This document shows positions 7,401 through 63,850 of a stretch of DNA of 64,000 nucleotides, piece after piece (positions within the stretch are counted from its first letter, which is position 1; each line of letters starts with the position of its first letter). Location: the sequence record OZ346189.1, one strand, 5' to 3'. A program made the translations under genes and the position numbers. Source of the stretch: a phage. The notes beneath the pieces are model-generated. The model made no database searches. It worked only from the letters and a program-made list of their open reading frames with translations, and had not been told where the DNA came from.

Positions 7401-7879
7401 TTACCGTCCCTTCTGGAGCAATCATTGTGAGAAGGAATGGTAAAGTGGCAGTGTGCGGTAACTGTAATAACGCCAAAGCTTACTCTTCTGTAGCAGGCAA
7501 GGAGATTTCCCGTAACGATGGTAAACCTATCACGTATGGGGTTATGTATGGGGCACAAAAAGATAAAGTTGCAGATATGCTGGACATCTCCCCAGAGTTG
7601 GGACAAAGGGTAATCGATGCACTCTGGGATGCCAACCCAGGTCTTAAGGGGCGCAAAGAGGATCTGGAGAAATTCTGGGAAGCAACAGGTAAGAAGTTTA
7701 TCTACTCTTTTGATGGTCATGCTATCTGGACCCGATCTAAACACTCTTTACTTAATGCATACCAACAAAATGGCGGTGCATCGTTGTGTGACTTAGTTGG
7801 AATACTCATGCACCACCAGATGGTGAAGCGTGGGTGGTACGATGAAGGTGTTCGTCGTATTATTTATTACCATAAATAA
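4481..7879 (+). CDS. DNA polymerase, family A (Pol I/T7 gp5-like), N-terminal and catalytic part; contains an intein; interrupted before C-terminus
   Basis: SD AAGGAGAA; motif A IDGSNLEQL, Pol I-like DAH segment, motif B SRNDGKPITYGVMYG, Q..G.A.D segment QQNGGASLCD and HDE-like WYDE near end; stop TAA 7877-7879. Confidence 0.85.
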   Translation: MSMWNFDFEASGLLDEEDLYYHCGLFKELNKNNFMLFLPINDRSHYSEEEVEKAKQFMLAKQDIYPSCSVRIADFSQLEWWLTGNSDWSPTSLSCHNCFSYDFILMEKLSGIHFDMFRDPKCMGTINNHQVNLFDTLPMSRILWPDRPLPKGCPDSVYNPVTKRMQQVGPHGLMAWGYALGNQKVKIDDWRNLPLWKYVDRVFEDVIIQELLWKELVAESKGVFYGKSDMQNFMYDPAKEKPKGFKKITWKNALRRGMLQHFLMELQARQGVYFDIDGAIALRDRCDAWMKEIADRVEPQLPLKELSMSQRPKFPEKPFNQDGTISNNGWKWLKDKLGYPVDMSALEFKAPPKRAFTSTGDVSKMGIKWCEEMGCKDPDKMADFLRGYIKGTSTPQPLPKELMDQAISDLQQKRMPDCKIPMKISNQDDIKRYLISAGWLPTMWRTKDVTKDSKKKALPDADVDARVYAYMDELLESEYCDLIINFWNKTDAKFQTTVHKFRSFPNSERIKKEVFGKIRRKARALITSPQLKDTFGHLCPNLEKLNGEMAKDIVLWLSLRNRRSVLDPIKEDKVDTGLLNHPRLKIDHKLPAKSSGLTNTSRQKHSICANMPKPSPKVVMGKEMRSLWGVPPGYFEIGIDGSNLEQLIGAWGAFEFDNGLYYDVVSNGDAHCYSGDTQILTEKGWVRFEDLDPGTQVFQYDHNTSSMNLVTPLNYVKRSYCGDMYHFHNSSVDFMVTDQHRMLTVDHRSNKLFEDLAKDLKAGKGSNSGRRFIHAAEFYGNTTLSPAQVNLLIAIHDDGHLHTNKDGSIVCRIQVGKGRKVATLLDTFSALSLSYVEQSGKTTKGGLLARRFQFHVPSWVFEFLDNNKDFTYNLMNLDKESKNLFIASLSNWDGWVSSEGGKVAYYSQAECRKKSVEVVSALATQCGLRNNTVAIHKKGRAVQHRITIGSKQRAGLLTLSKESVEVSGSLVYCVTVPSGAIIVRRNGKVAVCGNCNNAKAYSSVAGKEISRNDGKPITYGVMYGAQKDKVADMLDISPELGQRVIDALWDANPGLKGRKEDLEKFWEATGKKFIYSFDGHAIWTRSKHSLLNAYQQNGGASLCDLVGILMHHQMVKRGWYDEGVRRIIYYHK
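6494..7462 (+). mobile_element. intein with LAGLIDADG-type homing endonuclease domain inside DNA polymerase
   Basis: 323 in-frame codons between Pol motifs A and B; starts CYSGDTQIL (block A), TDQH (block B), LLIAIHDDGH and LFIASLSNWDGW (LAGLIDADG-like), ends ...LVYCVTV...VAVCGN followed by Cys +1. Confidence 0.7.
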
Positions 7880-8377
7880 CATTGTGGCTTCATAGAGTAA
7901 TCTATGTCGAATAACCTCTTTAACTGCGGGAAGCCTAAACCTTATGGCAAGGTAATCCGCAACGAAGCGCTCAAAAGAGCGAACGCTCAGAGGCCATTCC
8001 GAAAGGAAGTAGACCAGCAAGTGCGGTCGAAATGGGAGGATTCCTGTGGTTGCTTATCATAGGAATATGAGATGGTCCGATCCTACGTGAAAACGTATGG
8101 CTATGCACGTAATGGTGCGGGGTAGCTTAACGACCTACCTGAACTATTGGATGAGTACCAACTTCAAGTGCCTGACACACCGAAGTATAAGACTGTGTAC
8201 ACCTTCGACACAATTGAAGAACTGGAAGCATTTAAGGCAGAGCAGGAAGCCAAACTTCATGTGTTCGACGGTCATAAGTACAAAAAGGCACGCAAGGATG
8301 AGGACGGAAACGAAGTGGTTGACAGAGACGGAAACACGGTGTACGATCCTATCCTGAACGATGACGGAAAGCTTGAA
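7847..8377 (+). other. intervening sequence in DNA polymerase gene (candidate group I intron; boundaries approximate)
   Basis: In-frame stops at 7877, 7898 and 8060 separate ...GWYDE from the polymerase C-terminus encoded in the same frame from about 8378; no large ORF inside. Confidence 0.4.
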
Positions 8378-10987: not shown

Positions 10988-11233
10988 ATGACTGAAGCAG
11001 TTGCTCGCGCAGGACAGAAAGTACGTTGTGTTGAAGTAGGTTTTGGTGGCAAAGGGTGTCAAAACTTGACTCAAGGCAAGGAATATGCTGTTATCTCTGG
11101 TGGTGGCGACGAAAGTATTGTGTTCGAGGGCCACATCCTGGATGCTGAAAACTTTGAAATCTTTGACGACGATGGGGATCCGATCACCTGCCTGCTGGAC
11201 GGGAATTGGGGAACTTTCGAAGTGATTGGCTAA
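10988..11233 (+). CDS. hypothetical protein
   Basis: 81 aa; CAGGAGA SD. Confidence 0.5.
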   Translation: MTEAVARAGQKVRCVEVGFGGKGCQNLTQGKEYAVISGGGDESIVFEGHILDAENFEIFDDDGDPITCLLDGNWGTFEVIG

Positions 11234-11316
11234 CAAATACCTATTGTAATTTACAGAAGGGGATGCTAAAATAGTGTCTCCTTCTATGTTGTTCAAATAA
11301 AATCGGAGATTCCATA

Positions 11317-11685
11317 ATGGAACAAATGAACGATCAAGAGTCGGTTGCGATGAACGAGCAAGAACAACCTCAAGAATTTTTCTTAGGGTTAAGTAAAGAT
11401 CAAGTGTCTCTTTTGCTAGTGCTTTCTTCTTTCATGGGAAGACTTCAGGAGCTCACACAACAACCGGAGGCTGAACAATTATTTCAGGCTCTGCGTGAAG
11501 AAGAAAAATATCGTCGTTTGGACTATGCCTTAGGTTGGGTAGCTCAACAACGAGATATGCTGATGGCCCTCTCTGGGACCACAAGTTTTGCAATGGGCCT
11601 GTTGGCTCAAGTTCAGGACAAATTAATTCAAGCAGGGTTTGCACACACGGCAAACACTAACGAAGAACAAGGAGACAAAGAATGA
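11317..11685 (+). CDS. hypothetical protein
   Basis: 122 aa; Gln/Glu-rich N-terminus. Confidence 0.5.
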   Translation: MEQMNDQESVAMNEQEQPQEFFLGLSKDQVSLLLVLSSFMGRLQELTQQPEAEQLFQALREEEKYRRLDYALGWVAQQRDMLMALSGTTSFAMGLLAQVQDKLIQAGFAHTANTNEEQGDKE

Positions 11686-12908
11686 GCGTTATTCAACAAT
11701 TCGCTAACCCGATGAATCCGCGTGAAACTGTTTTACTGGCTCACGGCATGATTAAACGCGTCAGCATCAAGCCTATCAAAGGTGCTGATCCTACAACAGG
11801 TATTAAAACCACTGTGTGGCAAGGTAAGAAAATTGAATCCAGCCACACCATCTCTTTACTGATTTCTGAACTGGATTCCTCTGATAACCTACTTCAAGGT
11901 GGTGAAGAAGTTTGGATCAGTATGGGCGATAAGCTGCTTAAACCGGGTCATCAAGACTCTGTCTCTGTTAAAATTGATGACAAGTGGGAAACCGTAACGC
12001 CAGGATGGATCGTAAATATCCCTTTGAAGGCAAACGAGCATAACGGTAAGACCTACTACAAAGGCTCACTGGCTAAGATGGTTAAGCTGGGTGCAGGAGA
12101 GGCTCCAGCAGCGACTCAGCAGCAAAAACAGCAACAAGGTGCACAATCACAAGGCCAGAAGCAGAAACCTCAGCAGAATGCCAATCAGGACGTTTTACGC
12201 ATCTATGGTGATGTGACTCAGATTGTTGGCAACGTGGTTACTGTAAATGACCACAAGATTGGCGAAGGTGCTATGGTTGTAACTGATGAGCAGCTTAAAG
12301 ACCTGGTGGTAGGTGGTCGTGTTGCAGCCATTGTTGACAAAGACACTGGAAACATTATCAGTGGTTTCAAGGCCTATCCTCCTAAGGCAGAGAACGGCAC
12401 TCAAGGCTCCGGTGGCAAGCGTAAATCCTCTTACGACCCTATCGGTGTGGAAACGGGGCATAGCATCAATGCGTTGCAGATCATCCTGGATCGCGGGTTT
12501 AAGGTAGACGACCCACTGGGCGTGGCTAAAACACTGCACGTAGTCACCATTGAGCTTAAGAAAGAGTATGCTCAAGCCACCAACCGAACTGAAGATGAAG
12601 TAGGTGCCAGTGTCGGTAATGCGGTGTTGAACGCTTGTCGCCGTATTGACAAGAAAACGAAAGTTGATGATTTTGCAGCGGCAATTACTGCAGAAGCAAA
12701 AGATGTCTTGACTAATCTGGCTGAGCCGTTGTACGATTGGATCAAGAACGGTGCTGGGTCAACTGACCATCAAGAACCTCAGGCTGCCAAACAGGAAGCA
12801 GCTCCACAGCAAAACACTGTAGACGCTCCTCCTGTAAATGATGGGGAAGATGACCCGATGGATCAGAATCCAGCACAGTACGCCTTTGATGATGACATCC
12901 CTTTTTAA
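11682..12908 (+). CDS. SSB-like protein with acidic C-terminal tip
   Basis: 408 aa; Gln-rich linker (ATQQQKQQQGAQSQGQKQKPQQ) and C-terminus ...AFDDDIPF, identical in form to the SSB tip motif DDDIPF; AGGAGA SD. Confidence 0.45.
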   Translation: MSVIQQFANPMNPRETVLLAHGMIKRVSIKPIKGADPTTGIKTTVWQGKKIESSHTISLLISELDSSDNLLQGGEEVWISMGDKLLKPGHQDSVSVKIDDKWETVTPGWIVNIPLKANEHNGKTYYKGSLAKMVKLGAGEAPAATQQQKQQQGAQSQGQKQKPQQNANQDVLRIYGDVTQIVGNVVTVNDHKIGEGAMVVTDEQLKDLVVGGRVAAIVDKDTGNIISGFKAYPPKAENGTQGSGGKRKSSYDPIGVETGHSINALQIILDRGFKVDDPLGVAKTLHVVTIELKKEYAQATNRTEDEVGASVGNAVLNACRRIDKKTKVDDFAAAITAEAKDVLTNLAEPLYDWIKNGAGSTDHQEPQAAKQEAAPQQNTVDAPPVNDGEDDPMDQNPAQYAFDDDIPF

Positions 12909-12923
12909 CAATTAGTTAACATA

Positions 12924-12951
12924 GCCCTGCCCGAAAGGGTGGGGCATTTTT
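12924..12951 (+). terminator. rho-independent terminator
   Basis: GCCCTGCCC-GAAA-GGGTGGGGC + ATTTTT; second copy of the 1541 terminator. Confidence 0.6.
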
Positions 12952-12970
12952 GTATAAGGAGATCTGAAAA

Positions 12971-13387
12971 ATGACATTAGAAGATATCATTGTTAAACCT
13001 GAGAACTATGACCAATACAACCTGTCAACTCAATCTGTAGACCTTGGATGCGCCACAGTTAGTGCGTGGCTGGTTAATGGAAAAGAGCTGGACAAGTGCT
13101 TAGAAGCTCACATGTCTGTTAACAAGTTTCTGGATGAAAATACTCACTGGCTTGAGGGTGCTGGAGTATATGCTTCATGGTTGGAGAGCATGGGCTTTGA
13201 CTATCAATCTGATGAAGGGTGGTGGAGCTATCTGGCTATCTGTCCAGAAACACTGCAATGCTTCATGAAATACTCTGAAGATCTTGAGTACCGAGCGGTG
13301 GTTGATAGTGCTATTGCCCGTTATAGCCGTAAACCTTTTTCCCATGACATTAAAACTGTGGAAGAATTTGTTGAAGTTTTCTGTTGA
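12971..13387 (+). CDS. hypothetical protein
   Basis: 138 aa; AAGGAG SD. Confidence 0.55.
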   Translation: MTLEDIIVKPENYDQYNLSTQSVDLGCATVSAWLVNGKELDKCLEAHMSVNKFLDENTHWLEGAGVYASWLESMGFDYQSDEGWWSYLAICPETLQCFMKYSEDLEYRAVVDSAIARYSRKPFSHDIKTVEEFVEVFC

Positions 13388-13483
13388 CACAGGTTGAAAG
13401 GTGTGCAATTATAACTTCATAAAACGGGAGGACGCGATGAACGAAGAAAACTGGGATGTATAACTAACAGGAGACCACTGCCC

Positions 13484-13681
13484 ATGATTTATCGAATCCG
13501 TGTAAGAGAAGATGCACCAGGCTGTTACTTTGACTGGCGTGGGTGGTGGTTTCTCCACCCAATGGATGGACTCACAGATAGAATGCTGGATGCTGCCCTT
13601 TATACAGATACCGACATAGAATATAATCTCTATCTGAAGGACGGTATAGATAACGGTCTATTTGAAGCAATTCCTGTGTAA
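13484..13681 (+). CDS. hypothetical protein
   Basis: 65 aa; CAGGAGA SD. Confidence 0.45.
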   Translation: MIYRIRVREDAPGCYFDWRGWWFLHPMDGLTDRMLDAALYTDTDIEYNLYLKDGIDNGLFEAIPV

Positions 13682-13749
13682 GAGACTGTGATAGCCATGT
13701 TTTATGATCTTCCTGTAGCACCACCACCTGTTGAACCTGGAGAACTAAG

Positions 13750-14169
13750 ATGATCTATGAAATGCCAAAACTGATTCGTGACGATGCCCAAAACCACACC
13801 ATTATTATGGGTAAACGCATGAATATCCTTTGCCGTAACGATTTCTGTGGTGTAGAATACGTTGCAGACTACTTCGGTGAGAATGGTAAACACCCTGTTC
13901 AGTTCTTCCTTGACCATGAGGATAACATTATCTGGGAGTTTGAAACTGAAGATATCCGCAACCTCTTCATCTTCCTCGGTGTCAAGGTTAAGGCCAATTT
14001 CGCGGAAGGTGAGTGCGACGATTGTGGATTTTATGAGGTGACAGACTTCTATCTCCCGAGTGGCAAGAACATTTACTATGAGAGTCACTTCGGAAACACC
14101 AACATGCCTCAAAGCTGGGAAGAATTTTTCAGTATCGTAGAAGAGGAGCTGGCATACCGTGATTATTGA
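13750..14169 (+). CDS. hypothetical protein
   Basis: 139 aa; several Cys/His; SD present. Confidence 0.5.
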   Translation: MIYEMPKLIRDDAQNHTIIMGKRMNILCRNDFCGVEYVADYFGENGKHPVQFFLDHEDNIIWEFETEDIRNLFIFLGVKVKANFAEGECDDCGFYEVTDFYLPSGKNIYYESHFGNTNMPQSWEEFFSIVEEELAYRDY

Positions 14170-14617
14170 TACTGTAAAGGGAGATTTAATCTCCCTTTTT
14201 AAGAGCGGTGCTGGTCACCTAATCCACGGTTGTAACTGCTTCCACACAATGGGTAAGGGCATAGCAAAACAGATTGCCCGTGAGTTTCCTCAAGCATTGT
14301 CAGCCGACAAAGAGACCAGACACGGTTGCCTAAGTAAACTGGGTGCGTTCTCCCGATGGGAGCACTTATCTCCGAGAGGTATTGTCTACGGAATCAATCT
14401 GTATACTCAGTTCTACCCAGGGCCTAATGCTGAATATTTCTCAATCCTGAAAGGCTTTGAGCTAGTCAATGAGGTATTCGAGGGATCGACTTTACCATTC
14501 TACATCCCTAAGATCGGATGCGGCATAGGCGGTTTGAAGTGGGAGCACGTAGAGGACGTTATTAACCTCGCCACTTTTGATATAGATATTATCGTGGTGG
14601 AGTACAAAGAGTGTTGA
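14159..14617 (+). CDS. macro-domain protein (ADP-ribose binding/processing)
   Basis: 152 aa; N..(5)..G-x-G-[IV]-A..IA segment (HGCNCFHTMGKGIAKQIA) and IPKIGCGIGGL, matching the two macro-domain signature segments. Confidence 0.6.
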   Translation: MIIDTVKGDLISLFKSGAGHLIHGCNCFHTMGKGIAKQIAREFPQALSADKETRHGCLSKLGAFSRWEHLSPRGIVYGINLYTQFYPGPNAEYFSILKGFELVNEVFEGSTLPFYIPKIGCGIGGLKWEHVEDVINLATFDIDIIVVEYKEC

Positions 14618-14642
14618 CAGCTGACTTTTGAGATGGTATAGT
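14614..14642 (+). promoter_or_regulatory. sigma70-like promoter
   Basis: TTGACA 14614-14619 (overlaps upstream stop), 17-nt spacer, TATAGT 14637-14642. Confidence 0.55.
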
Positions 14643-14673
14643 CACCACAACGATTGAGAGAGGGAGCACCACT

Positions 14674-14874
14674 ATGGAGACTAAAATCTTAATTCTGGCT
14701 GTGATAGATACGACCGAAGGGGCCGTGTTCGAATCTGCAGGAGGGTATTTCTACCTGCCCTACGGAAAAATAACTTCCGAACCGAGTAAAGATTCAATCC
14801 TTAAAGTGTTCCCTTGTGCTTTCTGGCTGGAGATTCTGGTAGAAGATTGCAGAGGATTGGGGAGAGAATTATGA
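14674..14874 (+). CDS. hypothetical protein
   Basis: 66 aa; GAGAGGGAG SD. Confidence 0.45.
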   Translation: METKILILAVIDTTEGAVFESAGGYFYLPYGKITSEPSKDSILKVFPCAFWLEILVEDCRGLGREL

Positions 14875-15065
14875 GAAACAAGAAAGAGCTTTACTCTGGC
14901 GAGTGGATCAACGATCAACAGGTCGGAGAGGTAACCTGCTTCCGGTGTTTTACTCGGTACAATCTTAAAACTGCACCAAAAAGTGTTCCAAAGACTGACG
15001 GTTATTACATAAAAGAACCTCATTGCCCAAAATGTAAATGCCGATTGTACTGGAGCAATCTATAA
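14871..15065 (+). CDS. zinc-ribbon protein
   Basis: ORF track 14814-15065; ATG 14871 after GGGGAGAG; CxxC...CxxC (CFRC...CPKC). Confidence 0.5.
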   Translation: MRNKKELYSGEWINDQQVGEVTCFRCFTRYNLKTAPKSVPKTDGYYIKEPHCPKCKCRLYWSNL

Positions 15066-15069
15066 GAGG

Positions 15070-15097
15070 TTGACATCTGAAAACTGCAGTGTATAGT
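15070..15097 (+). promoter_or_regulatory. sigma70-like promoter
   Basis: TTGACA 15070-15075, 16-nt spacer, TATAGT 15092-15097. Confidence 0.55.
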
Positions 15098-15128
15098 ATA
15101 CACATAAACTAACAGAGAGCGATGTATT

Positions 15129-15320
15129 ATGGTAATTTTTAACCGGGATGGTATCATAGTTAGACAGCACCCGTTCCTTGAATACTATCAAATTGAGCAA
15201 TGGTGCTACGGGGATTGCAGTCACTCCTATGGGCAAAGTTGGGGATATCGTACAGTTTTTGAATCAACAGACCTTGACAAAGTAAGACAGAAAGTTTTAG
15301 AACTTATTAACAACAAGTGA
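15129..15320 (+). CDS. hypothetical protein
   Basis: 63 aa. Confidence 0.45.
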   Translation: MVIFNRDGIIVRQHPFLEYYQIEQWCYGDCSHSYGQSWGYRTVFESTDLDKVRQKVLELINNK

Positions 15321-15329
15321 GTATGATAT

Positions 15330-15662
15330 ATGGTAACATTAGAAAGACGTAAAGCTATCGCCGCCACACTGGCAGACATCTTTTGGGATTGCAACTTAAA
15401 AGATACCAGAAATTGTGGCGCATCTGTAGATGTATTATTCCCACGGCCCACCATTGTTGCAATGGGAAACCTGTTAAACGTAGTGTACGGAGCATGGGAC
15501 AAAGAAGGTGGATTCTATATCTGGCAACCTGACTACAGAGCCTGGAAAGAGGTAAGGGGTGCGGTTGACTTTGGGCCTGCAAGTGCTAAGATGGATGGCT
15601 GGGAAATTTATGTTGGAAACGACATGAAGCTGAAAGGCGAGATTGTTTACTGGTTACCTTAA
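15330..15662 (+). CDS. hypothetical protein
   Basis: 110 aa; weak SD. Confidence 0.45.
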   Translation: MVTLERRKAIAATLADIFWDCNLKDTRNCGASVDVLFPRPTIVAMGNLLNVVYGAWDKEGGFYIWQPDYRAWKEVRGAVDFGPASAKMDGWEIYVGNDMKLKGEIVYWLP

Positions 15663-15682
15663 GAGAATGCAGGAGATAAAGT

Positions 15683-15928
15683 ATGAACAAAGGGTGGACA
15701 TTTGTAGACGGCGTTGAAAACATGCCTCTAGGAAAGTATATTGTAGCCATGGCAGATGAGAATGGCAAGGTTGATTTCGGAGCTTGCGAGGTTGTTCTTG
15801 CAGGATCTGGTGACTATGCTCACAAAACTGGGATAATTAACGGTCATTTCTACTTTGATTACAACCCTGTTGTGGCGTATATGGCTATGCCAGAGTTCGA
15901 GCTCCCAAAGGAGGGTGCGGATGTTTAA
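15683..15928 (+). CDS. hypothetical protein
   Basis: 81 aa; CAGGAGA SD. Confidence 0.5.
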   Translation: MNKGWTFVDGVENMPLGKYIVAMADENGKVDFGACEVVLAGSGDYAHKTGIINGHFYFDYNPVVAYMAMPEFELPKEGADV

Positions 15929-16118
15929 GCTTAAATCTGCATGGAACATCGCTGTGGGGGACGAGATCCGCATCCCAGGTGGAAAGACCATTATGAAGAT
16001 ATCTCGTATCGAGTACGAAGGTGATCGTGTATTTCATATCTTTGCAGAAGATGGTCGAGAAATTTATATACAGGCAGGCTCTCACATCTATATTCGTAAG
16101 AAAGGGGACGACAAATGA
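15921..16118 (+). CDS. hypothetical protein
   Basis: ORF track 15855-16118; ATG 15921 after AAGGAGGG; coupled to upstream stop. Confidence 0.45.
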   Translation: MFKLKSAWNIAVGDEIRIPGGKTIMKISRIEYEGDRVFHIFAEDGREIYIQAGSHIYIRKKGDDK

Positions 16119-16444
16119 CAGAGATCATCATTTCAACTGCAGGGTATGTGTTCCTGACAATCATTGCACTGACCATTTTGGTGGTGGTATATGGAATTGT
16201 TATTCTCCCTATTCTTGAGACAATTAGTTTGTGTCGGTGTTGGAGAAAGGCTTACGGTCCACAGCCGTGGAAGGACTGGCCCCACCTGGTGCACATAGCG
16301 TTCTCTTATGCTTATGATCACGCCAGCAGTGCATGCATAACCGGGTATCACGCCCACAACTGGAGCTGGGAAGGGTTGAGGAAATGGAATGTTACAAAGA
16401 CCATACCTCTGCGCATGTACAAACCTAAAAACAAAGACAGCTGA
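16115..16444 (+). CDS. membrane protein
   Basis: 109 aa; N-terminal transmembrane segment YVFLTIIALTILVVVYGIVILPIL; last gene before the non-coding repeat region. Confidence 0.5.
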   Translation: MTEIIISTAGYVFLTIIALTILVVVYGIVILPILETISLCRCWRKAYGPQPWKDWPHLVHIAFSYAYDHASSACITGYHAHNWSWEGLRKWNVTKTIPLRMYKPKNKDS

Positions 16445-16519
16445 TACTTGAAAATCCCTGGCATATCAAGTGTAAGGAGGATTTCTAAAATGGATTTCCT
16501 CCTTTTGATATTTCACCGG

Positions 16520-17040
16520 GCCAGATATTTTAAAATTCTTAGAAAATCAGAAAATGGATCGAAAACTAAAATGGATTTTTCAAGACAGGCACGATAAGAT
16601 GTGCTGCTCATTCTATCGTTCGCACCGTACTTTAAGTCACTATTCCAGATTTTTCCGCACATACTCTCACCCTTCTACCAGAACTTTCCCAGCTTACCTC
16701 TGACCTTTTATAACAATAAGTCCATTATTATCAGAAAGTTTCGGCACATCTCTTTCGGTACTCGATCTGTTTTTCATTTCAAAGACCTGATTTTCTGAAA
16801 ATTTTTCTCGATAAATTTCTTAGTACTCGATCTGTTTTTCGTTTTCTGAATCGGATTTTCTGGAAATCGTTCCAGCCCTCGACCTGAAATTTTTGGGGAC
16901 GAAATCGATTTTTCGTTTTCAGAAATGGATTTTTAAAATTTCTATATGGGAATATTTTATGGGATACTGTTTTATAGGAAATTGTTACGGAGGGTAATTA
17001 GCATGCTAATTAAATTTATTAAATGCGAGGAGTTCTCATT
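16520..17040. repeat. AT-rich non-coding region with direct repeats and an 18-bp perfect palindrome
   Basis: GTACTCGATCTGTTTTTC at 16758-16775 and 16823-16840, related CTCGACCTGAAATTTTT at about 16876; repeated AAAATGGAT; palindrome TAATTAGCATGCTAATTA 16995-17012. Confidence 0.5.
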
Positions 17041-17049
17041 TAGAATTTT

Positions 17050-17066
17050 GAATGATAATCATTCTC
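17050..17066 (+). promoter_or_regulatory. Fur-box-like site 1
   Basis: GAATGATAATCATTCTC; 15/16 match to the 3' part of the Fur box consensus GATAATGATAATCATTATC. Confidence 0.35.
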
Positions 17067-17080
17067 GTTTGCAGAATAAC

Positions 17081-17104
17081 GGGCAGGCCCGGTGATTGTC
17101 TCCC
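17081..17104 (+). repeat. conserved motif copy 1 (GGGCAGGCCCGGTGATTGTCTCCC)
   Basis: 22/23 identical to the reverse complement of 26869-26891; diverged copy at 17221-17240. Confidence 0.5.
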
Positions 17105-17180
17105 GGCCCCTGTTGCCCCGGCTTGTTATTATAGTATCACACAGGACAAAGAAAGCAAGGATTTTTTGCATAAATTTTTA

Positions 17181-17202
17181 AATGATAATGATAACCGTTC
17201 TC
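17181..17202 (+). promoter_or_regulatory. Fur-box-like site 2
   Basis: AATGATAATGATAACCGTTCTC; core GATAATGATAACCGTTCTC is 16/19 to Fur box consensus. Confidence 0.35.
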
Positions 17203-17721
17203 ATTTTATGCAGCGCCCATCCCCGGTGGTTGTCTCCCCCGTCACCGGTGCCTGCCGTCCTTTCGATAGGTATATTGTGCCACCTGGCGGGGCCGCTGTC
17301 AACACTTCTTCAAAAATTTTTTCTAACATAATGCACCAACCGCTGCAACCTGGCGGGGCCAGCCTGGCAGGACCTGACTGACCAGGTAGGAGAGAGTGAA
17401 AACTTGCAAACCTGGTAGGCCTATGCTACAGGGCAGGTAACAATTGAAGAGGAGGTACAAAAATGAAAAGTAATATAATCCCCTGGAAAATGTAGCGATC
17501 AACGCCGCTGAAGTTATCACCCTGGTTGAAAAGGCTATGGCGGGAGCGTTGGAACATAAAGAAGAGTACGAAAAATGATGGTTAACCTGGCAGGGGCGGC
17601 GGCTGGAGAATTCTTCCCAAAAAATAATTCTAACTAATGGTTGACAGCTCGGAGAGTTCTGTTATTCTTATCCTCGCAAGGTGAACAACACCACACTAAT
17701 TAACAGAGAGGATAAAAAATC

Positions 17722-27740: not shown

Positions 27741-28160
27741 ATGAACATTAAATCTAATAATCCGGCATATAGCTTTGATAACGCTTTTTGTCACGGTCCG
27801 GCGGCGAAAGGATTCGAAATCGATGGTAAACTAATTATTGTCAATGTTGACGGGGAAGAGGTTGCAGTATATCCGGTGGCAGACGTAAAAAGCCGTTTAC
27901 AATGCCGCATGGATGTTACCGCCTATCAGCTTGATCCGGTCCGCATAGTTGCCCTGGTCCTGGAAGAAGAAATTAAAGCCATGCACCATAGCAACAGATT
28001 TATTGGTGACGCGCAGGATAATATGAAAGTATGCCGCCATAAAGTTAATGAAGTGCTTAAAGAGTACGGCTATAAAGATCTTATGATCAAACGTGAGGAA
28101 AAATTCCGCTACCGTAACGACCTGGCAAATCGGATTTTTGAAATATACGAATCATTATAA
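27741..28160 (+). CDS. hypothetical protein
   Basis: 139 aa; AAGAGGTAAAA SD; last gene of + block. Confidence 0.55.
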   Translation: MNIKSNNPAYSFDNAFCHGPAAKGFEIDGKLIIVNVDGEEVAVYPVADVKSRLQCRMDVTAYQLDPVRIVALVLEEEIKAMHHSNRFIGDAQDNMKVCRHKVNEVLKEYGYKDLMIKREEKFRYRNDLANRIFEIYESL

Positions 28161-28178
28161 TTTTTTAACTGAATTATC

Positions 28179-28203
28179 AAGGGGCTTAGGCCCCTTTCTT
28201 TTT
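28179..28203 (+). terminator. rho-independent terminator at end of + block
   Basis: AGGGGC-TTAG-GCCCCT followed by TTCTTTTT. Confidence 0.65.
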
Positions 28204-28589
28204 GTCTGCTCTTCCTCCTACCACAAACGGCCCAGCCTGGCAAGTGGAATAATTGACTAGCCATCAATCCCACACACTGTACAAATATACATGGAAAATA
28301 ACTATTGCATAATTTTTCATTGTGTGGTAGCAGGTCCATTTTTACCCGTTTTCTCTCTCAAAATTGCACGTAATGCCGCTATTGCACAAAATTTAACCTG
28401 ATGCACATCTTCAATATCTTGTCAACAACTAAAAATCTTTATAAGTCATACACTTACACACTCACAAAAGCGTGTTCTACGTGAAAAATCGAGTATAACT
28501 ATAGCCGCCAGATCTCAGAATTTACAAAGGCCATCATTAAAGCTTCAGTAAAATCAGTCATTCCTCACCTCTTGTTAGTCACTATACTA

Positions 28590-28853
28590 TCATTTATCCT
28601 TGTCGTCAAGAACTTTTTTAAATCTTTCAGGGATATCTCCCGTTCTTAGATAGTTCATGACCTCGCAAGGTTCCCACTTGAATTTCTTACAGAGCAGGGC
28701 GGCTGAGATTGTTTCATTGCGAAAAGAAAGGATATTAATATCCCACTCTGAGAACCCCAACTTCCGAAGGGTAGCTACAGAAATCCTCACCGCAACCCAG
28801 CAGCAAAAACATGCAACAAACGCCACTGCTACAACCCACATCAGGATGTTCAT
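28590..28853 (-). CDS. membrane protein
   Basis: 87 aa; N-terminal TM WVVAVAFVACFCCWVAV; last gene of - block. Confidence 0.45.
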   Translation of the reverse strand: MNILMWVVAVAFVACFCCWVAVRISVATLRKLGFSEWDINILSFRNETISAALLCKKFKWEPCEVMNYLRTGDIPERFKKVLDDKDK

Positions 28854-28862
28854 ATAAGCACC

Positions 28863-28946
28863 TTACTGAAATACAAGACACAGTGTTAAGGTTACTGACC
28901 AGCAAATAATTAACAGTGCCGTTGCAACCTTGGCAAGATTTATCAT
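28863..28946 (-). CDS. micro-ORF, hydrophobic (27 aa)
   Basis: ATG overlaps upstream stop (ATGA); MINLAKVATALLIICWSVTLTLCLVFQ; GAGG SD. Confidence 0.25.
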   Translation of the reverse strand: MINLAKVATALLIICWSVTLTLCLVFQ

Positions 28947-30170: not shown

Positions 30171-30246
30171 TCAGTCTCCCGTCTTGTTAAGATGAAGGTA
30201 TTATTTCACACAGGGTTGGCGTTGTCAACACCTGTGTGCAAGAAAA

Positions 30247-30974: not shown

Positions 30975-30978
30975 ATTA

Positions 30979-60443: not shown

Positions 60444-61727
60444 TCATTCCAGCACCTCCCAAGTGTCTGGGTTAACATTCCGGACGCAGATACCGACAGG
60501 GAATTGGTAGTTGTTGTCTTCTGTCCTTGCTTGATATTTGAAGGTGACAAACTTGCCGATCATTTCCTGCATTCTGTCATAGCTACGCTCCTCGTGCGTA
60601 CCTTTCATCTTCATTTTAACAACAACACCTTCCTTGTCAACACAGATAAGAACACCTTCATCATTCTTATCTTTCTCAACGTCAATAACTTTCACCTCTG
60701 CGTCGTTGAACTTTTTCCATTTCAATGCTTCAGATGTTCGCTGACCATACTCATATTTACCGCAGAAATTACGCATGATAGTACCTTCATATCCTTCGGA
60801 CATGAATATACCAACAGATTCTTCGCAATGATCAACTGTGTACGCAAGCTCTGCGTCAACAACCTTGATATGATCAAGCATCAGAGTGGTAACGGTATCC
60901 TCTGCATCCATAAGATCCTTGCAGCGTCCAGACTCTGTTTCTGGATCCCACCACACCTTGTCGCTAGGAATATCAAAAATGTGATACTCCAGATCGTAGC
61001 TACAGTATCCACCGTAACGCAAATCATCACGAACAGGCTCAACATCGACAGGAATATCTACCTTGTTGAAGTTTTTGTATGTTGATAAGCCTGCCTTAAT
61101 TGCTGCATGACGGCGTTTTTTATCTGCCTCATAGTCTTTATCGATCTCGGCCTGAATCTCTTCCTGTGTGCGCCACCGTTTAGCAAGAGACACTATTTTC
61201 TGCAAAGGAAGACCATGAATGTATAGTTCCCCATCAAGTTGTTTAATCCCAGTGGTAGAATGGAAAGAACGAAGTTGCTCTAAAAGCTTTCCTTGAATAG
61301 GGTAGGACTTATTACCACGGGAAATAAATTTAGGCTCACCATTTTGGAAAACAACAAGCAGACGAAGGCCATCTAACTTACGCAAGATCCAGCAAGGTAA
61401 TTTAAGTGCCTTGCCACGCTTCAGGTAGTCATGCACCAGCATAGGTAAAAGATCAACACCCTGCTCGCAATCTTCCATGTTTTCAACATACCCCAGACGG
61501 ACTTGTTTTTCCCACTTGCTGATAGCCTCAAGCTCGGCCTGTTGCTCAGCTGTAGTCTCGTTGGCACGACCTACGTTTTTAGGTGTGCATACCGTCTCTT
61601 TGTACTGCAATTTACCGTCAAGCTTGCCAAACTCTACGATAACCTTTTCGCCATCAGTGAATACTTTCCACTGTTGGTAGCTGCCATCTTTGTTCAGTGC
61701 GTACAGTGTTGTTTTGATTTGATGCAT
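60444..61727 (-). CDS. ATP-dependent DNA ligase
   Basis: 427 aa; adenylation motif I K-x-D-G-x-R (ILRKLDGLRLL). Confidence 0.6.
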   Translation of the reverse strand: MHQIKTTLYALNKDGSYQQWKVFTDGEKVIVEFGKLDGKLQYKETVCTPKNVGRANETTAEQQAELEAISKWEKQVRLGYVENMEDCEQGVDLLPMLVHDYLKRGKALKLPCWILRKLDGLRLLVVFQNGEPKFISRGNKSYPIQGKLLEQLRSFHSTTGIKQLDGELYIHGLPLQKIVSLAKRWRTQEEIQAEIDKDYEADKKRRHAAIKAGLSTYKNFNKVDIPVDVEPVRDDLRYGGYCSYDLEYHIFDIPSDKVWWDPETESGRCKDLMDAEDTVTTLMLDHIKVVDAELAYTVDHCEESVGIFMSEGYEGTIMRNFCGKYEYGQRTSEALKWKKFNDAEVKVIDVEKDKNDEGVLICVDKEGVVVKMKMKGTHEERSYDRMQEMIGKFVTFKYQARTEDNNYQFPVGICVRNVNPDTWEVLE

Positions 61728-62353: not shown

Positions 62354-63067
62354 TTAAATATACTCTGTTACATCCTTGAAGCTCGAAGGCTTCATAATCT
62401 TACCTTTACTGTCAAGGAATATAATAGCTTTATTACCGTTGTAGAACTCCTCTTTAGCAACGAAACCTTCGTAGCGACCACCAAAACGACGCTCAAGATC
62501 TTCAATCTCTAACTCTATGAGCAATTCAGTAGACATATCTGCACTGGCACCGTGAGAATATCGTAGATGGTTGATCCGTGCAAACTTGCTGTCATTAGAT
62601 TTGAGAACCTTCCGCATCATCCCACACACATCGCCGCGAAGCTGGAACAGCAAAGCTGTTGACAACTCCGCTAAGCGGTAAGCTGACGCTCTTTGCTTGG
62701 ATGTGTTTTTCGCAGCGATCAGTGTATCATAGAACTCACCGATCTTGAACTTAAGACCTCGTGGATTATCAAACAGGTTTGACCACTTTTCGTGATTATC
62801 ATTAACAAGATAAGCGGCATAACTTGTGACAACGTGAAGATCGCAGGCCTCTTTTAGCAGGTGATCTCCACCATCACCTTTCTCCAGCTCTTCCAAAACC
62901 TCATTGAACTCTTCCTCAATGAAGCTAAGCTGTAATTCGAATGGTGTGTATGATTTTTTCACTTTAGCTGCCACACGGTTCCAGTTTTCCACCCAGTTGG
63001 CAGACCAAAGGTAGTTTTCAGGCTGAGACAGTTTTTCCAGGTTGTCGATCAGTTTAGTATTCAGCAT
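62354..63067 (-). CDS. MazG-like nucleotide pyrophosphohydrolase (tentative)
   Basis: 237 aa; EE..E..E...D helix pair FIEEEFNEVLEELEKGDGGDHLLKEACDL typical of all-alpha NTP-PPases. Confidence 0.4.
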   Translation of the reverse strand: MLNTKLIDNLEKLSQPENYLWSANWVENWNRVAAKVKKSYTPFELQLSFIEEEFNEVLEELEKGDGGDHLLKEACDLHVVTSYAAYLVNDNHEKWSNLFDNPRGLKFKIGEFYDTLIAAKNTSKQRASAYRLAELSTALLFQLRGDVCGMMRKVLKSNDSKFARINHLRYSHGASADMSTELLIELEIEDLERRFGGRYEGFVAKEEFYNGNKAIIFLDSKGKIMKPSSFKDVTEYI

Positions 63068-63080
63068 TGAAGGTCTCCTT

Positions 63081-63842
63081 TTAAAGTTCCATAAAGTTTT
63101 CTACAGTTTCAATAAATGCTTTATCAGAGAAAGCGTCAACAGCACCGTTAAACCATACAGGGATCCCGCGATCCTCATATTGATAAAGGTCGCTACGTGA
63201 AATGCCACTTCCATCTGCACTCTGCGAGTCATACTTGTTTACAATCAGCAGTTTTGTGCCTTTACAAGTAGCAGGAAACAATTCCCAGTTAAAATTAATA
63301 ACTGTGTTAGAACAACCTACTAGGATCACCATATCATTGCTTGTGAGAGATGTCAACAGGTCATACATGTCTGTATACTTAGGAGCAACCTCACCGAAGA
63401 ACACTACATTGGGCTTAACCCAGGTATACTTGCCTGTATCTACCTCCGTGTATCCGATATTTTTAATTACATCATTACCTTCAGCATCTTCGTAGGTGAT
63501 TTCAGGCAAATACCCGTGGACATGTAAAATATCTTCATGTTTTACACCAGCACGCTCCAGCAAATCATCTACATTGGTGGTAAGGTTGATCACACGACCA
63601 GACCAGCGGGAATACCACTCAGCGATCCGAAGATGTGCAAGGTTAGGATCAACACTGCCCAGAGCTACACGACGTGCATTGTAAAAGTCATGCACCTTAT
63701 AGTAATTCTTGGCAAAGGTGTGAATGTTGCACACCTCATCGATGCTGAAATTCTCCCACATTGCAGTGCTACCAGATCGGAAAGTGGGAATACCAGATTC
63801 AGCGCTCAAACCAGCACCGGAGATAATAATCAGTCGTCGCAT
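63081..63842 (-). CDS. Sir2-family (sirtuin-like) NAD-dependent enzyme
   Basis: 253 aa; NAD-binding signature ISGAGLSAESGIPTFR and TTNVDDL...HVHG. Confidence 0.7.
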   Translation of the reverse strand: MRRLIIISGAGLSAESGIPTFRSGSTAMWENFSIDEVCNIHTFAKNYYKVHDFYNARRVALGSVDPNLAHLRIAEWYSRWSGRVINLTTNVDDLLERAGVKHEDILHVHGYLPEITYEDAEGNDVIKNIGYTEVDTGKYTWVKPNVVFFGEVAPKYTDMYDLLTSLTSNDMVILVGCSNTVINFNWELFPATCKGTKLLIVNKYDSQSADGSGISRSDLYQYEDRGIPVWFNGAVDAFSDKAFIETVENFMEL

Positions 63843-63850
63843 AAGTGTCC

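What the first reader, a model, noticed from the sequence alone, without database searches (positions are those of the whole stretch)
14159..14617. Macro-domain protein; with the Sir2-like and MazG-like genes it suggests a phage NAD+/ADP-ribose module
ORF 14159-14617 has both macro-domain signature segments (N-x5-G-x-G-I-A..I-A and I-P-x-I-G-C-G-x-G-G). The same window encodes a Sir2-family protein (63081-63842, GAGLSAESGIPTFR) and a MazG-like pyrophosphohydrolase (62354-63067). Established: macro domains bind or hydrolyse ADP-ribose derivatives and Sir2 enzymes consume NAD+. Inference: the phage may manipulate NAD+/ADP-ribose signalling, for example to reverse ADP-ribosylation or degrade NAD-derived signals used by host defence systems.
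Basis: partly seen in the sequence, partly recalled or inferred. Interest (0 to 1): 0.7.

Follow-up and report, generated by a model that had tools for sequence, protein, structure and literature searches.

The report
Phage macrodomain, T4 AdfM (Tk.4) ortholog
The ORF is a real macro-domain gene of an rV5-like E. coli phage and an ortholog of phage T4 Tk.4/AdfM, so it most likely strips ADP-ribose off phage DNA to defeat the bacterial DarTG2 defence system; the distant Sir2 and MazG-like genes belong to a separate RNA-repair gene cluster, so no three-gene module exists here.

Summary
ORF 14159-14617(+) encodes a 152-aa macro domain (Pfam above threshold, AF2 pLDDT 96.9, TM 0.78 to TARG1). The Sir2 gene and the MazG-superfamily gene are also real.

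The window is a Vequintavirus (rV5-like E. coli myophage), and relatives already annotate all three genes.

The macro protein aligns end to end with T4 Tk.4 (40% identity) and RB49 Tk.4 (69.5%). A 2025 preprint showed genetically that T4 Tk.4 is AdfM, the factor T4 needs on DarTG2 hosts. Its only hit in the NCBIfam and PADLOC libraries is the macro half of DarG.

The family carries a conserved Gln (116/120) where DarG and TARG1 have the catalytic Lys. SCO6735, an efficient thymidine-ADP-ribose DNA hydrolase, has the same Gln.

The three-gene "NAD+/ADP-ribose module" is not supported:
- The genes lie 49 kb apart on opposite strands.
- Their distributions across phages are independent (2812, 1023 and 300 phage records).
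- They almost never neighbour each other (1/80 and 1/57 loci).
- Sir2 and the MazG-like gene instead sit with RNA ligase, kinase and phosphoesterase genes, a predicted RNA-repair cassette described in 2022.

Verdict: an ordinary, untested member of a known anti-defence family. Interest is low to moderate.

The parts
14159..14617 (+). Macro-domain gene (152 aa, GTG start), an ortholog of T4 Tk.4/AdfM. Predicted orphan DarG-like DNA ADP-ribosylglycohydrolase with a Gln-type (SCO6735-like) active site: H23, N26, N80, Q84, and glycine-rich loops at 32-36 and 119-125.
14143..14148 (+). Shine-Dalgarno sequence GAGGAG, 10 nt upstream of the GTG start.
   Evidence: sequence read directly
13750..14169 (+). 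Upstream 139-aa ORF of unknown function (PHROG 8157). Its stop overlaps the macro start by 11 nt, so it probably lies in the same transcript. It is not found next to tk.4 in T4 or RB49, so it is not a conserved partner.
13384..13412 (+). Candidate sigma70-like promoter (TTGACA-17-AATTAT, TG extension, 10/12 matches) that could drive orf65, orf139 and the macro gene. This is a consensus match only.
14614..14642 (+). Strong sigma70-like promoter match (TTGACA-17-TATAGT, 11/12 matches) overlapping the macro stop codon. It marks the start of the next small early gene. Such sites are enriched in this block (20 found against 10.8 +- 3.0 expected).
63081..63842 (-). Separate unit: Sir2-family gene (253 aa). 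The catalytic His109 and the NAD-binding motifs are conserved, but the Cys4 zinc site is absent. It belongs to the phage sirtuin clade linked to RNA-repair genes.
62354..63067 (-). Separate unit: MazG/PRA-PH-superfamily all-alpha NTP pyrophosphohydrolase-like gene (237 aa), immediately downstream of Sir2.
60444..61727 (-). ATP-dependent DNA ligase gene, a conserved member of the Sir2/MazG/RNA-ligase neighbourhood in the rV5-like supergroup.

Best explanation
ORF 14159-14617 encodes a stand-alone, early-expressed macrodomain of the T4 Tk.4/AdfM family. This family is a phage-borne 'orphan antitoxin' related to the N-terminal macro half of DarG. When a host DarTG2 toxin-antitoxin system is triggered, DarT2 ADP-ribosylates thymidines in single-stranded phage DNA and blocks replication. 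The phage macrodomain binds the ADP-ribose through its two glycine-rich loops and hydrolyses the ribose-thymine bond, restoring replicable DNA. It may also inhibit DarT2 by direct interaction. Catalysis would be of the SCO6735 type: a conserved Gln (Q84) positions the distal ribose and a water network, in place of the Lys used by DarG, TARG1 and the chimallivirus AdfM. What is shown: domain identity, fold, family membership, residue conservation, purifying selection, and independence from Sir2 and MazG. What is inferred by homology: the DarT2 target, the DNA substrate and the Gln mechanism. Sir2 plus the MazG-like gene form a different unit, a predicted NAD-dependent RNA-end repair cassette.
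For: (1) Orthology. The protein aligns end to end with T4 Tk.4 (40% identity) and RB49 Tk.4 (69.5%, lying in the canonical vs-tk.4-tk synteny), and shares HGCNCFHTMG-G-A, NLYTQF-PGPN and P-IG-GIG.
(2) Genetics in T4. tk.4 was the single HIDEN-SEQ hit on a DarTG2 host, a clean knockout sensitises T4, and the gene was named adfM. T5, which lacks this macro gene, is DarTG2-sensitive (preprint 10.1101/2025.11.20.689424).
(3) Library hits. The only NCBIfam hit is antitoxin_DarG (7e-13, model positions 2-143 of 338). The only PADLOC hit is DarG (3.3e-14), which is stronger than T4 Tk.4's own hit (1.3e-9).
(4) Structure. PDB sequence, profile and fold neighbours are DarG, TARG1, SCO6735, BT1257 and Poa1p, all of the ALC1-like class.
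(5) Active site. Q84 is conserved in 116/120 homologs and aligns with TARG1 K84 and DarG K80. SCO6735 has Gln85 at that position, its Q85A mutant is dead, and SCO6735 removes dT-ADPr from DNA and rescues DarT toxicity (PMC9411070).
(6) Neighbourhood. Across 51 phage lineages the recurrent neighbours are DNA replication and dNTP genes: DNA pol A, DnaB and SNF2 helicases, dCMP deaminase and Tk. In the window the gene lies about 3.5 kb downstream of the polymerase/primase block, on the same strand, among sigma70-promoter-rich early genes.
(7) Selection. dN/dS is about 0.11.
Against: There is no experiment on any Vequintavirus protein. Identity to T4 Tk.4 is only 40%. The T4 evidence is genetic and comes from a preprint, which itself inferred enzymatic removal of ADP-ribose rather than showing it. 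The DarG/TARG1 catalytic Lys is absent, so activity rests on analogy with SCO6735. The N-terminal motif (H23, T30) also resembles that of yeast Poa1p, an ADP-ribose-1''-phosphate phosphatase. In 4 of 51 lineages the macro gene lies near Nampt, and in one KVP40-like contig it sits inside an NAD-salvage/Sir2 cluster. Other or additional substrates are therefore not excluded. Whether DarTG2 restricts Vequintaviruses at all is unknown.
Confidence: 0.65

Rival explanations
1. The macro protein works in trans with the phage Sir2 (and the MazG-like enzyme) as one NAD+/ADP-ribose pathway. It would deacylate O-acyl-ADP-ribose or dephosphorylate ADP-ribose-1''-phosphate / ADPr>P released when the sirtuin consumes NAD+, for example in a KptA-like RNA 2'-phosphate removal step.
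For: Both genes are in the same genome. TARG1 (named O-acetyl-ADP-ribose deacetylase 1 in its PDB entries) and Poa1p are among the closest structures, and H23 and T30 match the Poa1p positions that depositors mutated. In one KVP40-like contig (L084) the genes NatV(Nudix)-Nampt-Macro-HAD_SAK2-dCMP deaminase-x-Sir2-DUF3127-x-Prs are clustered, with the macro start overlapping the Nampt stop. Nampt lies near the macro gene in 4 of 51 lineages.
Against: The genes are 49 kb apart on opposite strands. Sir2 lies within 10 kb of the macro gene in 1 of 80 loci, and the macro gene within 10 kb of Sir2 in 1 of 57 loci. T4-like phages keep Tk.4 without any Sir2, and T5-like phages keep Sir2 without it. 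The T4 knockout phenotype is DarTG2-specific. Iyer et al. state explicitly that this sirtuin clade is not coupled to a macro gene. The window has no Nampt, NatV, Prs or HAD homolog.
Confidence: 0.12
2. The macrodomain counters a different ADP-ribose-based defence. It could reverse RNA or protein ADP-ribosylation (for example CmdTAC-type mRNA modification, or uracil/RNA ADP-ribosylation), or it could hydrolyse or sequester NAD-derived immune signals such as Thoeris cADPR isomers or His-ADPR.
For: Members of the ALC1-like class such as TARG1 and SCO6735 act on both protein and nucleic-acid substrates. The literature lists reversible RNA ADP-ribosylation and macro-domain sensing of His-ADPR. [quoted passage not shown]
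Against: Of the defence systems reported in the T4 screen, tk.4 is described as a hit only with DarTG2. The only defence-library similarity is to DarG. No Thoeris-type or CmdTAC-related similarity was found.
Confidence: 0.13
3. The protein is a non-catalytic ADP-ribose binder. It would act as a reader or sponge, or as a stoichiometric DarT inhibitor, because the catalytic Lys/Asp of TARG1 and the Lys of DarG are missing.
For: Q84 replaces the Lys and G124 replaces TARG1 D125. Catalytically dead SCO6735 Q85A still inhibits DarT by interaction.
Against: The Gln is conserved in 116/120 family members. The equivalent Gln85 is essential for the efficient hydrolase activity of SCO6735. The ribose- and phosphate-binding residues N26 and both Gly loops are conserved as in active enzymes.
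Confidence: 0.07

Closest known systems
Phage T4 Tk.4 = AdfM (anti-DarT factor Macrodomain; HIDEN-SEQ preprint 10.1101/2025.11.20.689424)
   Same: Same family, aligned end to end (40% identity; 69.5% to RB49 Tk.4). Both are stand-alone macro proteins of about 150 aa, share the conserved residues H23, N26, N80, Q84 and G120, and are non-structural early-region genes.
   Different: The genomic position differs: there is no vs/tk synteny, and the gene lies among small early genes downstream of the replication block. No experimental data exist for the Vequintavirus protein.
Streptomyces coelicolor SCO6735 and Bacteroides BT1257 (Gln-type ALC1-like macrodomains; PDB 5e3b, 2fg1/2afc)
   Same: Gln at the position of the DarG/TARG1 catalytic Lys. 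In the profile alignment BT1257 reads 'ANMIGQ' against the family's 'NLYTQ'. BT1257 is the best PDB profile hit (7.9e-19). SCO6735 hydrolyses thymidine-linked ADPr on DNA and neutralises DarT.
   Different: These are cellular proteins. Sequence identity is only about 22%. The extended mobile DNA-clamping loop described for SCO6735 was not examined here.
DarG antitoxin of DarTG2 (T. aquaticus and M. tuberculosis; PDB 5m31/5m3e/5m3i; NCBIfam NF048014)
   Same: The macro fold and ADPr-binding loops match. DarG is the best single-sequence PDB hit (5m3i, 8e-8) and the only NCBIfam and PADLOC hit.
   Different: The phage protein has no C-terminal DarT-binding domain and no adjacent darT. It has Gln instead of the catalytic Lys80. 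Its score of 48.5 bits is far below the equivalog cut-off of 250.
Chimallivirus AdfM (PhiKZ gp104; Cell Rep 2026, PMC13309987)
   Same: Also a phage-encoded orphan macrodomain. It was shown to remove DarT2 ADP-ribose from DNA and to protect against DarTG2, so it has the same predicted role.
   Different: It belongs to a different clade, with only 20% identity (E=7e-5) to the window protein. It has the DarG-type FPTK motif with N23/K78 and a much stronger DarG HMM score (4.4e-39 against 3.3e-14). It is targeted to the phage nucleus.
Human TARG1/OARD1 and yeast Poa1p
   Same: These are the closest solved folds (TM 0.78 and 0.71). The N-terminal H-x-C-N-C...G-x-G-I-A motif is nearly identical to that of Poa1p.
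   Different: The TARG1 Lys84/Asp125 dyad is replaced by Gln84/Gly124. The Poa1p substrate (ADPr-1''-phosphate from tRNA splicing) has no demonstrated source in this phage.
rV5-type sirtuin RNA-repair neighbourhood (Iyer, Burroughs and Aravind 2022, PMC9503650)
   Same: The window's Sir2 plus MazG-like pair, with the flanking RnlA-like ligase, cREC-like protein, P-loop kinase and calcineurin-like phosphoesterase seen in relatives, is exactly the configuration described for Escherichia phage V5.
   Different: It does not include the macro gene. Its function is a published prediction, not an experimental result.
KVP40-type NAD+ salvage cluster (NadV/Nampt plus NatV; named from my own knowledge of KVP40, not tested here)
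   Same: In one 247-kb viral contig a Tk.4-type macro gene is embedded in NatV-Nampt-Macro-HAD-Sir2-Prs.
   Different: None of the salvage genes (Nampt, NatV/Nudix, Prs, HAD) has a homolog in this window. The association is seen in 1-4 of 51 lineages only.

Membership tests
Macro domain superfamily (Pfam PF01661) | Profile HMM score above the curated gathering threshold | tested here: met
   28.5 bits against a cut-off of 22. The local match covers aa 22-53 only. The full-length PHROG 335 match is 2.9e-60.
Macro domain superfamily (Pfam PF01661) | Three-layer alpha/beta/alpha macro fold | tested here: met
   AF2 pLDDT 96.9 and pTM 0.91. Foldseek matches TARG1 at TM 0.78 and probability 1.00, and 154 PDB hits have E<=1e-3, nearly all of the 50 listed being macro domains.
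Macro domain superfamily (Pfam PF01661) | Two glycine-rich ADP-ribose phosphate-binding loops | tested here: met
   G32-K-G34-I-A36 and I119-G-C-G-I-G-G125 are present. G34, A36 and G120 are invariant in the 58-sequence alignment and are kept in 116-119 of 120 homologs.
Macro domain superfamily (Pfam PF01661) | Binds ADP-ribose or a derivative | not testable with these tools
   Requires ITC or a co-crystal structure.
AdfM, T4 Tk.4 type (anti-DarT2 orphan macrodomain) | Full-length homology to T4 Tk.4 | tested here: met
   tblastn gives 39.9% identity over aa 1-150 (E=1e-31) to T4, and 69.5% to RB49 tk.4. The alignment is A2.
AdfM, T4 Tk.4 type (anti-DarT2 orphan macrodomain) | Family-conserved residues (H23, N26, N80, Q84, G120; motif NLYTQ) | tested here: met
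   All are present. Conservation is 116-118 of 120 homologs, and T4 and RB49 are identical at these positions.
AdfM, T4 Tk.4 type (anti-DarT2 orphan macrodomain) | Stand-alone macro domain, with no DarT-binding domain and no adjacent darT | tested here: met
   The protein is 152 aa. It covers DarG model positions 2-143 of 338 and 3-141 of 329 only. All neighbours are small hypothetical genes.
AdfM, T4 Tk.4 type (anti-DarT2 orphan macrodomain) | Required for plating on DarTG2 hosts | not testable with these tools
   Shown only for T4. It needs a Vequintavirus knockout or complementation of T4 delta-adfM.
AdfM, T4 Tk.4 type (anti-DarT2 orphan macrodomain) | Removes ADP-ribose from DarT2-modified thymidine in ssDNA | not testable with these tools
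   This has not been shown biochemically even for T4 Tk.4. It has been shown for SCO6735 and for PhiKZ AdfM.
DarG antitoxin (NCBIfam NF048014 equivalog) | Score at or above the equivalog cut-off (250 bits); two-domain architecture | tested here: not met
   The score is 48.5 bits, and only the macro half of the model is matched.
DarG antitoxin (NCBIfam NF048014 equivalog) | Catalytic lysine (Taq K80) | tested here: not met
   The Lys position aligns with Q84: 'INFPTK' in 5m3i against 'INLYTQ'.
DarG antitoxin (NCBIfam NF048014 equivalog) | Encoded next to darT | tested here: not met
   No such gene is annotated near the macro gene in relatives.
Chimallivirus AdfM (PhiKZ gp104 clade) | DarG-type active site N23/K78 and close sequence similarity | tested here: not met
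   The Asn is kept (N26), but Lys is replaced by Gln. Identity is 20% with E=7e-5.
Gln-type ALC1-like macrodomains (SCO6735/BT1257) | Gln at the position of the TARG1 K84 / DarG K80 catalytic Lys, which is essential for activity in SCO6735 | tested here: met
   Q84 is present. BT1257 has Gln in the same profile column. The equivalence with SCO6735 Gln85 is taken from PMC9411070.
MacroD/YmdB-type O-acetyl-ADP-ribose deacetylase (the annotation used in some GenBank records) | Sequence or profile similarity to MacroD/YmdB-type structures | tested here: not met
   All profile PDB hits at E<=1e-10 are ALC1-like macrodomains. The only other hit is the uncharacterised TTHA0132 (8.7e-4), and no chain named MacroD or YmdB is listed at E<=0.01. 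TARG1-class enzymes can still deacylate OAADPr, so the activity itself is not excluded.
Sirtuin (Pfam SIR2) - gene 63081-63842 | HMM above threshold, GAGxS...GIPxFR NAD-binding motif, catalytic His | tested here: met
   98.2 bits against a cut-off of 24. G9, A10, G11, S16, G17, F21, R22 and H109 are invariant in 29 phage homologs.
Sirtuin (Pfam SIR2) - gene 63081-63842 | Cys4 zinc-binding module between the catalytic His and the FGE motif | tested here: not met
   The window protein has 0 Cys in this segment, and 29 phage homologs have 0-2, against 4 in E. coli CobB.
CobB-type protein deacylase (NCBIfam equivalogs) | Score at or above the equivalog or subfamily cut-off | tested here: not met
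   The best score is 122.6 bits against 243; the prot_deacyl_CobB model gives 104 against 320.
Defence-type SIR2 NADases (PADLOC models) | Match to any PADLOC SIR2-containing model | tested here: not met
   No PADLOC hit at E<=0.01.
MazG / all-alpha NTP pyrophosphohydrolase superfamily - gene 62354-63067 | Profile similarity and the EExxE...ExxD metal-binding motif | tested here: inconclusive
   The window copy gives PRA-PH E=0.089, below the cut-off. Of its orthologs, 17/17 hit PRA-PH (best 4.8e-6) and 15/17 hit MazG (best 5.9e-5). The motif is E51-E-E-F-N-E56 ... E73-A-C-D76. There are no PDB sequence hits. The model is moderate (pLDDT 71.5), and the best fold hits are dimeric dUTPases at E about 0.8 and probability 0.94.

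The most novel reading that the evidence does not exclude
Gln-type Tk.4 macrodomains may not be dedicated DarT2 erasers. They could be general ADP-ribose 'clean-up' enzymes of a phage NAD+ economy. In Vequintaviruses the protein would then also act in trans on ADPr-1''-phosphate, ADPr>P or O-acyl-ADPr released by the zinc-less sirtuin of the RNA-repair cassette. In KVP40-like phages it would feed ADP-ribose into the adjacent Nudix, Prs, Nampt and NMNAT NAD+-regeneration genes.
Probability: 0.1. Interest if true: 0.55.

Novelty: new member of a known kind. Interest (0 to 1): 0.3.

Why it matters
If the prediction holds, Vequintaviruses carry a ready-made counter to DarTG2. These are broad-host-range E. 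coli phages used in therapy cocktails and as the BASEL set Bas54-59, so the gene is relevant for predicting host range on clinical strains.

The residue analysis also adds a mechanistic point that I did not find stated in the papers I read. The two phage proteins now both called AdfM belong to different clades with different catalytic residues: the T4/rV5 type has Gln, like SCO6735, and the PhiKZ type has Lys, like DarG. Phages therefore appear to have recruited DarT-reversing macrodomains at least twice.

Beyond that, the finding is ordinary. The genes are already annotated in relatives, and their contexts have already been described in the literature.

Tried and rejected
- Searching papers for 'Vequintavirus' plus 'macro domain' gave one review in which the two terms were unrelated.
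- ICP1 AdfB was checked as a possible macro-type anti-DarT factor. As described in the paper it acts through direct interaction with DarT, and it is not described as a macrodomain protein.
- PDB sequence and profile searches with the MazG-like protein found nothing meaningful. Foldseek on its moderate model (pLDDT 71.5) gave only weak dimeric-dUTPase hits. The MazG call therefore rests on Pfam hits of orthologs and on the motif.
- The Poa1p structural paper is not in the library. The roles of H23 and S30 are known to me only from PDB entry titles.
- MAFFT misaligned the PhiKZ gp104 'FPTK' motif by 3-4 columns. I used the DarG-anchored alignment and the residue numbering from the paper instead.
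- Nampt, NatV/Nudix, Prs, HAD_SAK and dCMP deaminase homologs were searched for in the window, and none was found.
- A conserved partner for the translationally overlapping upstream ORF was considered and rejected, because that ORF is absent next to tk.4 in T4 and RB49.
- Genome-level co-occurrence could only be estimated from record counts, organism breakdowns and evenly spread rows, not from full hit lists.
Full report
WHAT THE WINDOW IS
Megablast of the macro region and of the Sir2 region finds about 120 records of Vequintavirus, the rV5-like E. coli myophages. The macro region is 99.0% identical to Escherichia phage MaxTheCat (Bas57) and 98.9% to A6-1. The Sir2 region is 99.8% identical to isim, pangalan and CarlMeissner. 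Several of these records already annotate the three genes. They use 'macro domain protein', 'O-acetyl-ADP-ribose deacetylase' or 'phosphatase, contains Macro domain' for the first gene. They use 'Sir2 NAD-dependent deacetylase' and 'nucleotide pyrophosphohydrolase' for the other two.

THE OBSERVATION
ORF 14159-14617(+) exists as described: GTG start, 152 aa. A GAGGAG Shine-Dalgarno lies 10 nt upstream, and the start overlaps the stop of the preceding 139-aa ORF by 11 nt.
- Pfam Macro scores 28.5 bits against a cut-off of 22, though only on the N-terminal loop.
- PHROG 335 matches the full length at 2.9e-60.
- An AlphaFold2 model built on 58 homologs has pLDDT 96.9. Its best PDB matches are TARG1 (TM 0.78), Poa1p, T. 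aquaticus and M. tuberculosis DarG, BT1257 and SCO6735.
- The gene is under purifying selection, with dN/dS 0.12 against Murica and 0.11 against an IMG/VR allele. The protein is identical to MaxTheCat bas57_0089.
- Sir2 (63081-63842, minus strand) scores 98 bits on Pfam SIR2.
- The MazG-like ORF (62354-63067, minus strand) is itself sub-threshold (PRA-PH E=0.089). However, 17/17 orthologs hit PRA-PH and 15/17 hit MazG. It carries an EEEFNE...EACD motif. Its weak best fold matches are dimeric dUTPases of the same all-alpha superfamily.

WHICH MACRODOMAIN IT IS
A tblastn search of the phage collection finds homologs in 2812 records. The ranking runs from Vequintaviruses through RB49 tk.4 (69.5% identity) to T4 tk.4 (about 40%). 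It also includes Felix-O1-like, Ackermannviridae, Pakpunavirus, phi92-like and jumbo phages. The window protein aligns end to end with T4 Tk.4 and RB49 Tk.4.

In an alignment of 58 homologs, G24, N26, C27, G34, A36, N80, Q84 and G120 are invariant. Over all 120 retrieved homologs, H23 and N26 are present in 118 and N80 and Q84 in 116.

By sequence and profile, the closest solved structures all belong to the ALC1-like/TARG1 class: BT1257, TARG1, SCO6735, DarG and Poa1p. The only NCBIfam hit is the equivalog model for the DarG antitoxin (7e-13). It is matched over the macro half only and scores far below the cut-off. The only PADLOC hit is also DarG (3.3e-14).

WHAT THE FAMILY DOES
A bioRxiv preprint of November 2025 (10.1101/2025.11.20.689424) reports that tk.4 was the single transposon-sequencing hit when a T4 library was grown on a DarTG2 host. 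It also reports that a clean tk.4 knockout becomes DarTG2-sensitive. The authors named the gene adfM and inferred, but did not show, enzymatic removal of ADP-ribose from DNA. A Cell Reports 2026 paper (PMC13309987) independently named a chimallivirus macrodomain AdfM. [quoted passage not shown]

I retrieved PhiKZ gp104 and compared it with the window protein. The two share only 20% identity (E=7e-5). PhiKZ gp104 has the DarG-type 'FPTK' motif, whereas the window protein, T4 Tk.4 and RB49 Tk.4 have 'LYTQ'. The Lys-to-Gln replacement does not argue for inactivity. SCO6735 has Gln85 at exactly this position, its Q85A mutant is dead, and SCO6735 removes thymidine-linked ADP-ribose from DNA more efficiently than DarG or TARG1 and rescues cells from DarT (PMC9411070). 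BT1257, the top profile hit, has the same Gln.

The best-supported mechanism is therefore an orphan, Gln-type, DarG-like DNA ADP-ribosylglycohydrolase that neutralises DarT2. Family membership and residue conservation are shown here. The substrate and the biological role are inferred from the T4 ortholog and from SCO6735.

IS THERE A MACRO-SIR2-MAZG MODULE?
Five lines of evidence say there is not one in this phage.
1. The genes are 49 kb apart, on opposite strands, on either side of the GC-skew and strand switch near 28 kb.
2. Their distributions differ. The macro gene is in 2812 phage records, Sir2 in 1023 and the MazG-like gene in 300. Pseudomonas, Acinetobacter, Aeromonas and Shigella phages account for 477 of the macro-bearing records. 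None of these genera reaches the top ten of the Sir2 list, whose tenth entry has 10 records. No T5-like (Markadamsvirinae-size) genome appears among 60 evenly spaced macro hits, although such genomes dominate the Sir2 list.
3. I fetched 80 viral loci centred on macro homologs (+-10 kb, 1.43 Mb, 51 lineages at 60% identity). A Sir2 gene lies in the flanks of one locus, and a MazG-like gene in none. The recurrent neighbours are dCMP deaminase (9 lineages), family-A DNA polymerase, SNF2/ResIII helicase and DnaB helicase (8 each), and thymidine kinase. These are DNA replication and dNTP genes, as in the window, where the gene follows the primase-helicase/polymerase block.
4. In the reverse test I fetched 57 loci centred on Sir2 homologs (1.12 Mb). 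A macro gene lies in the flanks of one locus. In the rV5-like supergroup loci, Sir2 lies within about 5 kb of the MazG-like gene (13 loci), RnlA-like RNA ligase (11), P-loop kinase (12), phosphoesterase (12), a cREC-like ORF (8) and DNA ligase (15) (Murica annotation).
5. Iyer, Burroughs and Aravind (2022, PMC9503650) described this exact neighbourhood, naming Escherichia phage V5, as a predicted NAD-dependent RNA-repair system. In their model the sirtuin acts like KptA/Tpt1, and they note that it is not coupled to a macro gene.

The Sir2 protein is not a CobB equivalog (122.6 against 243 bits). It matches no defence-type SIR2 model. It lacks the Cys4 zinc site.

One 247-kb KVP40-like contig (L084) has NatV(Nudix)-Nampt-Macro-HAD_SAK2-dCMP deaminase-x-Sir2-DUF3127-x-Prs, with the macro start overlapping the Nampt stop. 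Nampt lies within 10 kb of the macro gene in 4 of 51 lineages. The N-terminal motif, including H23 and T30, resembles that of Poa1p, the yeast ADP-ribose-1''-phosphate phosphatase. TARG1-class enzymes also deacylate O-acetyl-ADP-ribose. None of the NAD-salvage genes has a homolog in this window. I give a trans-acting role with Sir2 about 0.1 probability.

NOVELTY AND VERDICT
Relatives already annotate the gene as a macro-domain protein. Its family has a published genetic function, and the Sir2/MazG context is already in the literature. Two things are new here. First, the Vequintavirus gene is assigned to the Tk.4-type AdfM family. Second, Tk.4-type AdfM (Gln, SCO6735-like) and chimallivirus AdfM (Lys, DarG-like) are distinct clades. 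This makes the gene a new, untested member of a known kind. Interest is 0.3.

SEEN IN PASSING
- A group I intron lies at 7864-8099 inside the DNA polymerase gene (the CDS is annotated as joined in MaxTheCat).
- Relative to Murica, 4,464 bp are missing at window 28526|28527. The junction is found in none of 122 public relatives.
- The macro allele is much more divergent between Vequintaviruses than its flanks (dS about 1 against Murica).

Noticed in passing
window 28526|28527 (examined 28000-31500): Relative to phage Murica the window lacks 4,464 bp. The missing stretch holds eight small genes, gp129-gp136, including a 'transcriptional regulator', and about 2.2 kb of the roughly 2.5-kb non-coding strand-switch region. 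None of 122 public Vequintavirus records has this junction contiguous, and there is no microhomology at the join. A preprint reports that the equivalent intergenic region of Bas54 tolerates no transposon insertions. The window is either a genuine deletion variant or an assembly join.
   Followed up: partly
window 7864-8099 (+): Rfam group I catalytic intron (64.7 bits, E=4e-14, full-length model) inside the DNA polymerase gene. This is consistent with MaxTheCat annotating its polymerase CDS as two joined pieces.
   Followed up: no
window 63081-63842 (-), aa 109-151: The phage Sir2 has no cysteine in the segment where CobB and other sirtuins carry the Cys4 zinc module. 29 phage homologs have 0-2 Cys there, against 4 in CobB. 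The NAD-binding motifs and the catalytic His are invariant. It scores below all CobB equivalog cut-offs and hits no PADLOC defence SIR2 model.
   Followed up: partly
window 60444-64000 (-) and beyond the window end (by comparison with Murica, L002 12000-16500): Sir2 and the MazG-like gene are part of a conserved cluster with DNA ligase, RnlA-like RNA ligase, a cREC-like ORF, a P-loop kinase and a metallophosphoesterase. This is the predicted NAD-dependent RNA-repair cassette of Iyer et al. 2022. The window cuts it off at 64000.
   Followed up: yes
L084 7050-15573 (IMGVR_UViG_3300034095_001474, 247 kb): A KVP40-like contig carries NatV(Nudix)-Nampt-Macro(Tk.4 type)-HAD_SAK2-dCMP deaminase-x-Sir2-DUF3127-x-PRPP synthetase. 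The macro start codon overlaps the Nampt stop. This is a genuine NAD+/ADP-ribose gene cluster in another phage lineage.
   Followed up: partly
window 14159-14617 compared with L004 23033-23491 (Murica) and L006 3001-3456 (RB49): The macro allele differs by 93 of 453 nt from Murica (dS about 1.0), while the surrounding 2.8 kb is about 93% identical across relatives. The protein is 69.5% identical to Tk.4 of the unrelated Krischvirus RB49. This suggests allele exchange or horizontal transfer of this single gene. Truncated copies of 92-121 aa occur on some contigs, three of them about 135 kb long.
   Followed up: partly
window 11000-17500: Sigma70-like promoter matches are about twice as frequent as in shuffled sequence (20 against 10.8 +- 3.0). 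Near-consensus TTGACA-N16/17-TATAGT sites lie at 14614 and 15070, in front of small ORFs. This is typical of a host-RNAP-transcribed early region.
   Followed up: no
whole window: The window is a mosaic relative to public genomes. The macro region is closest to MaxTheCat and A6-1 (99%). The Sir2 region is closest to isim, pangalan and CarlMeissner (99.8%) and only 97.9% identical to MaxTheCat.
   Followed up: no
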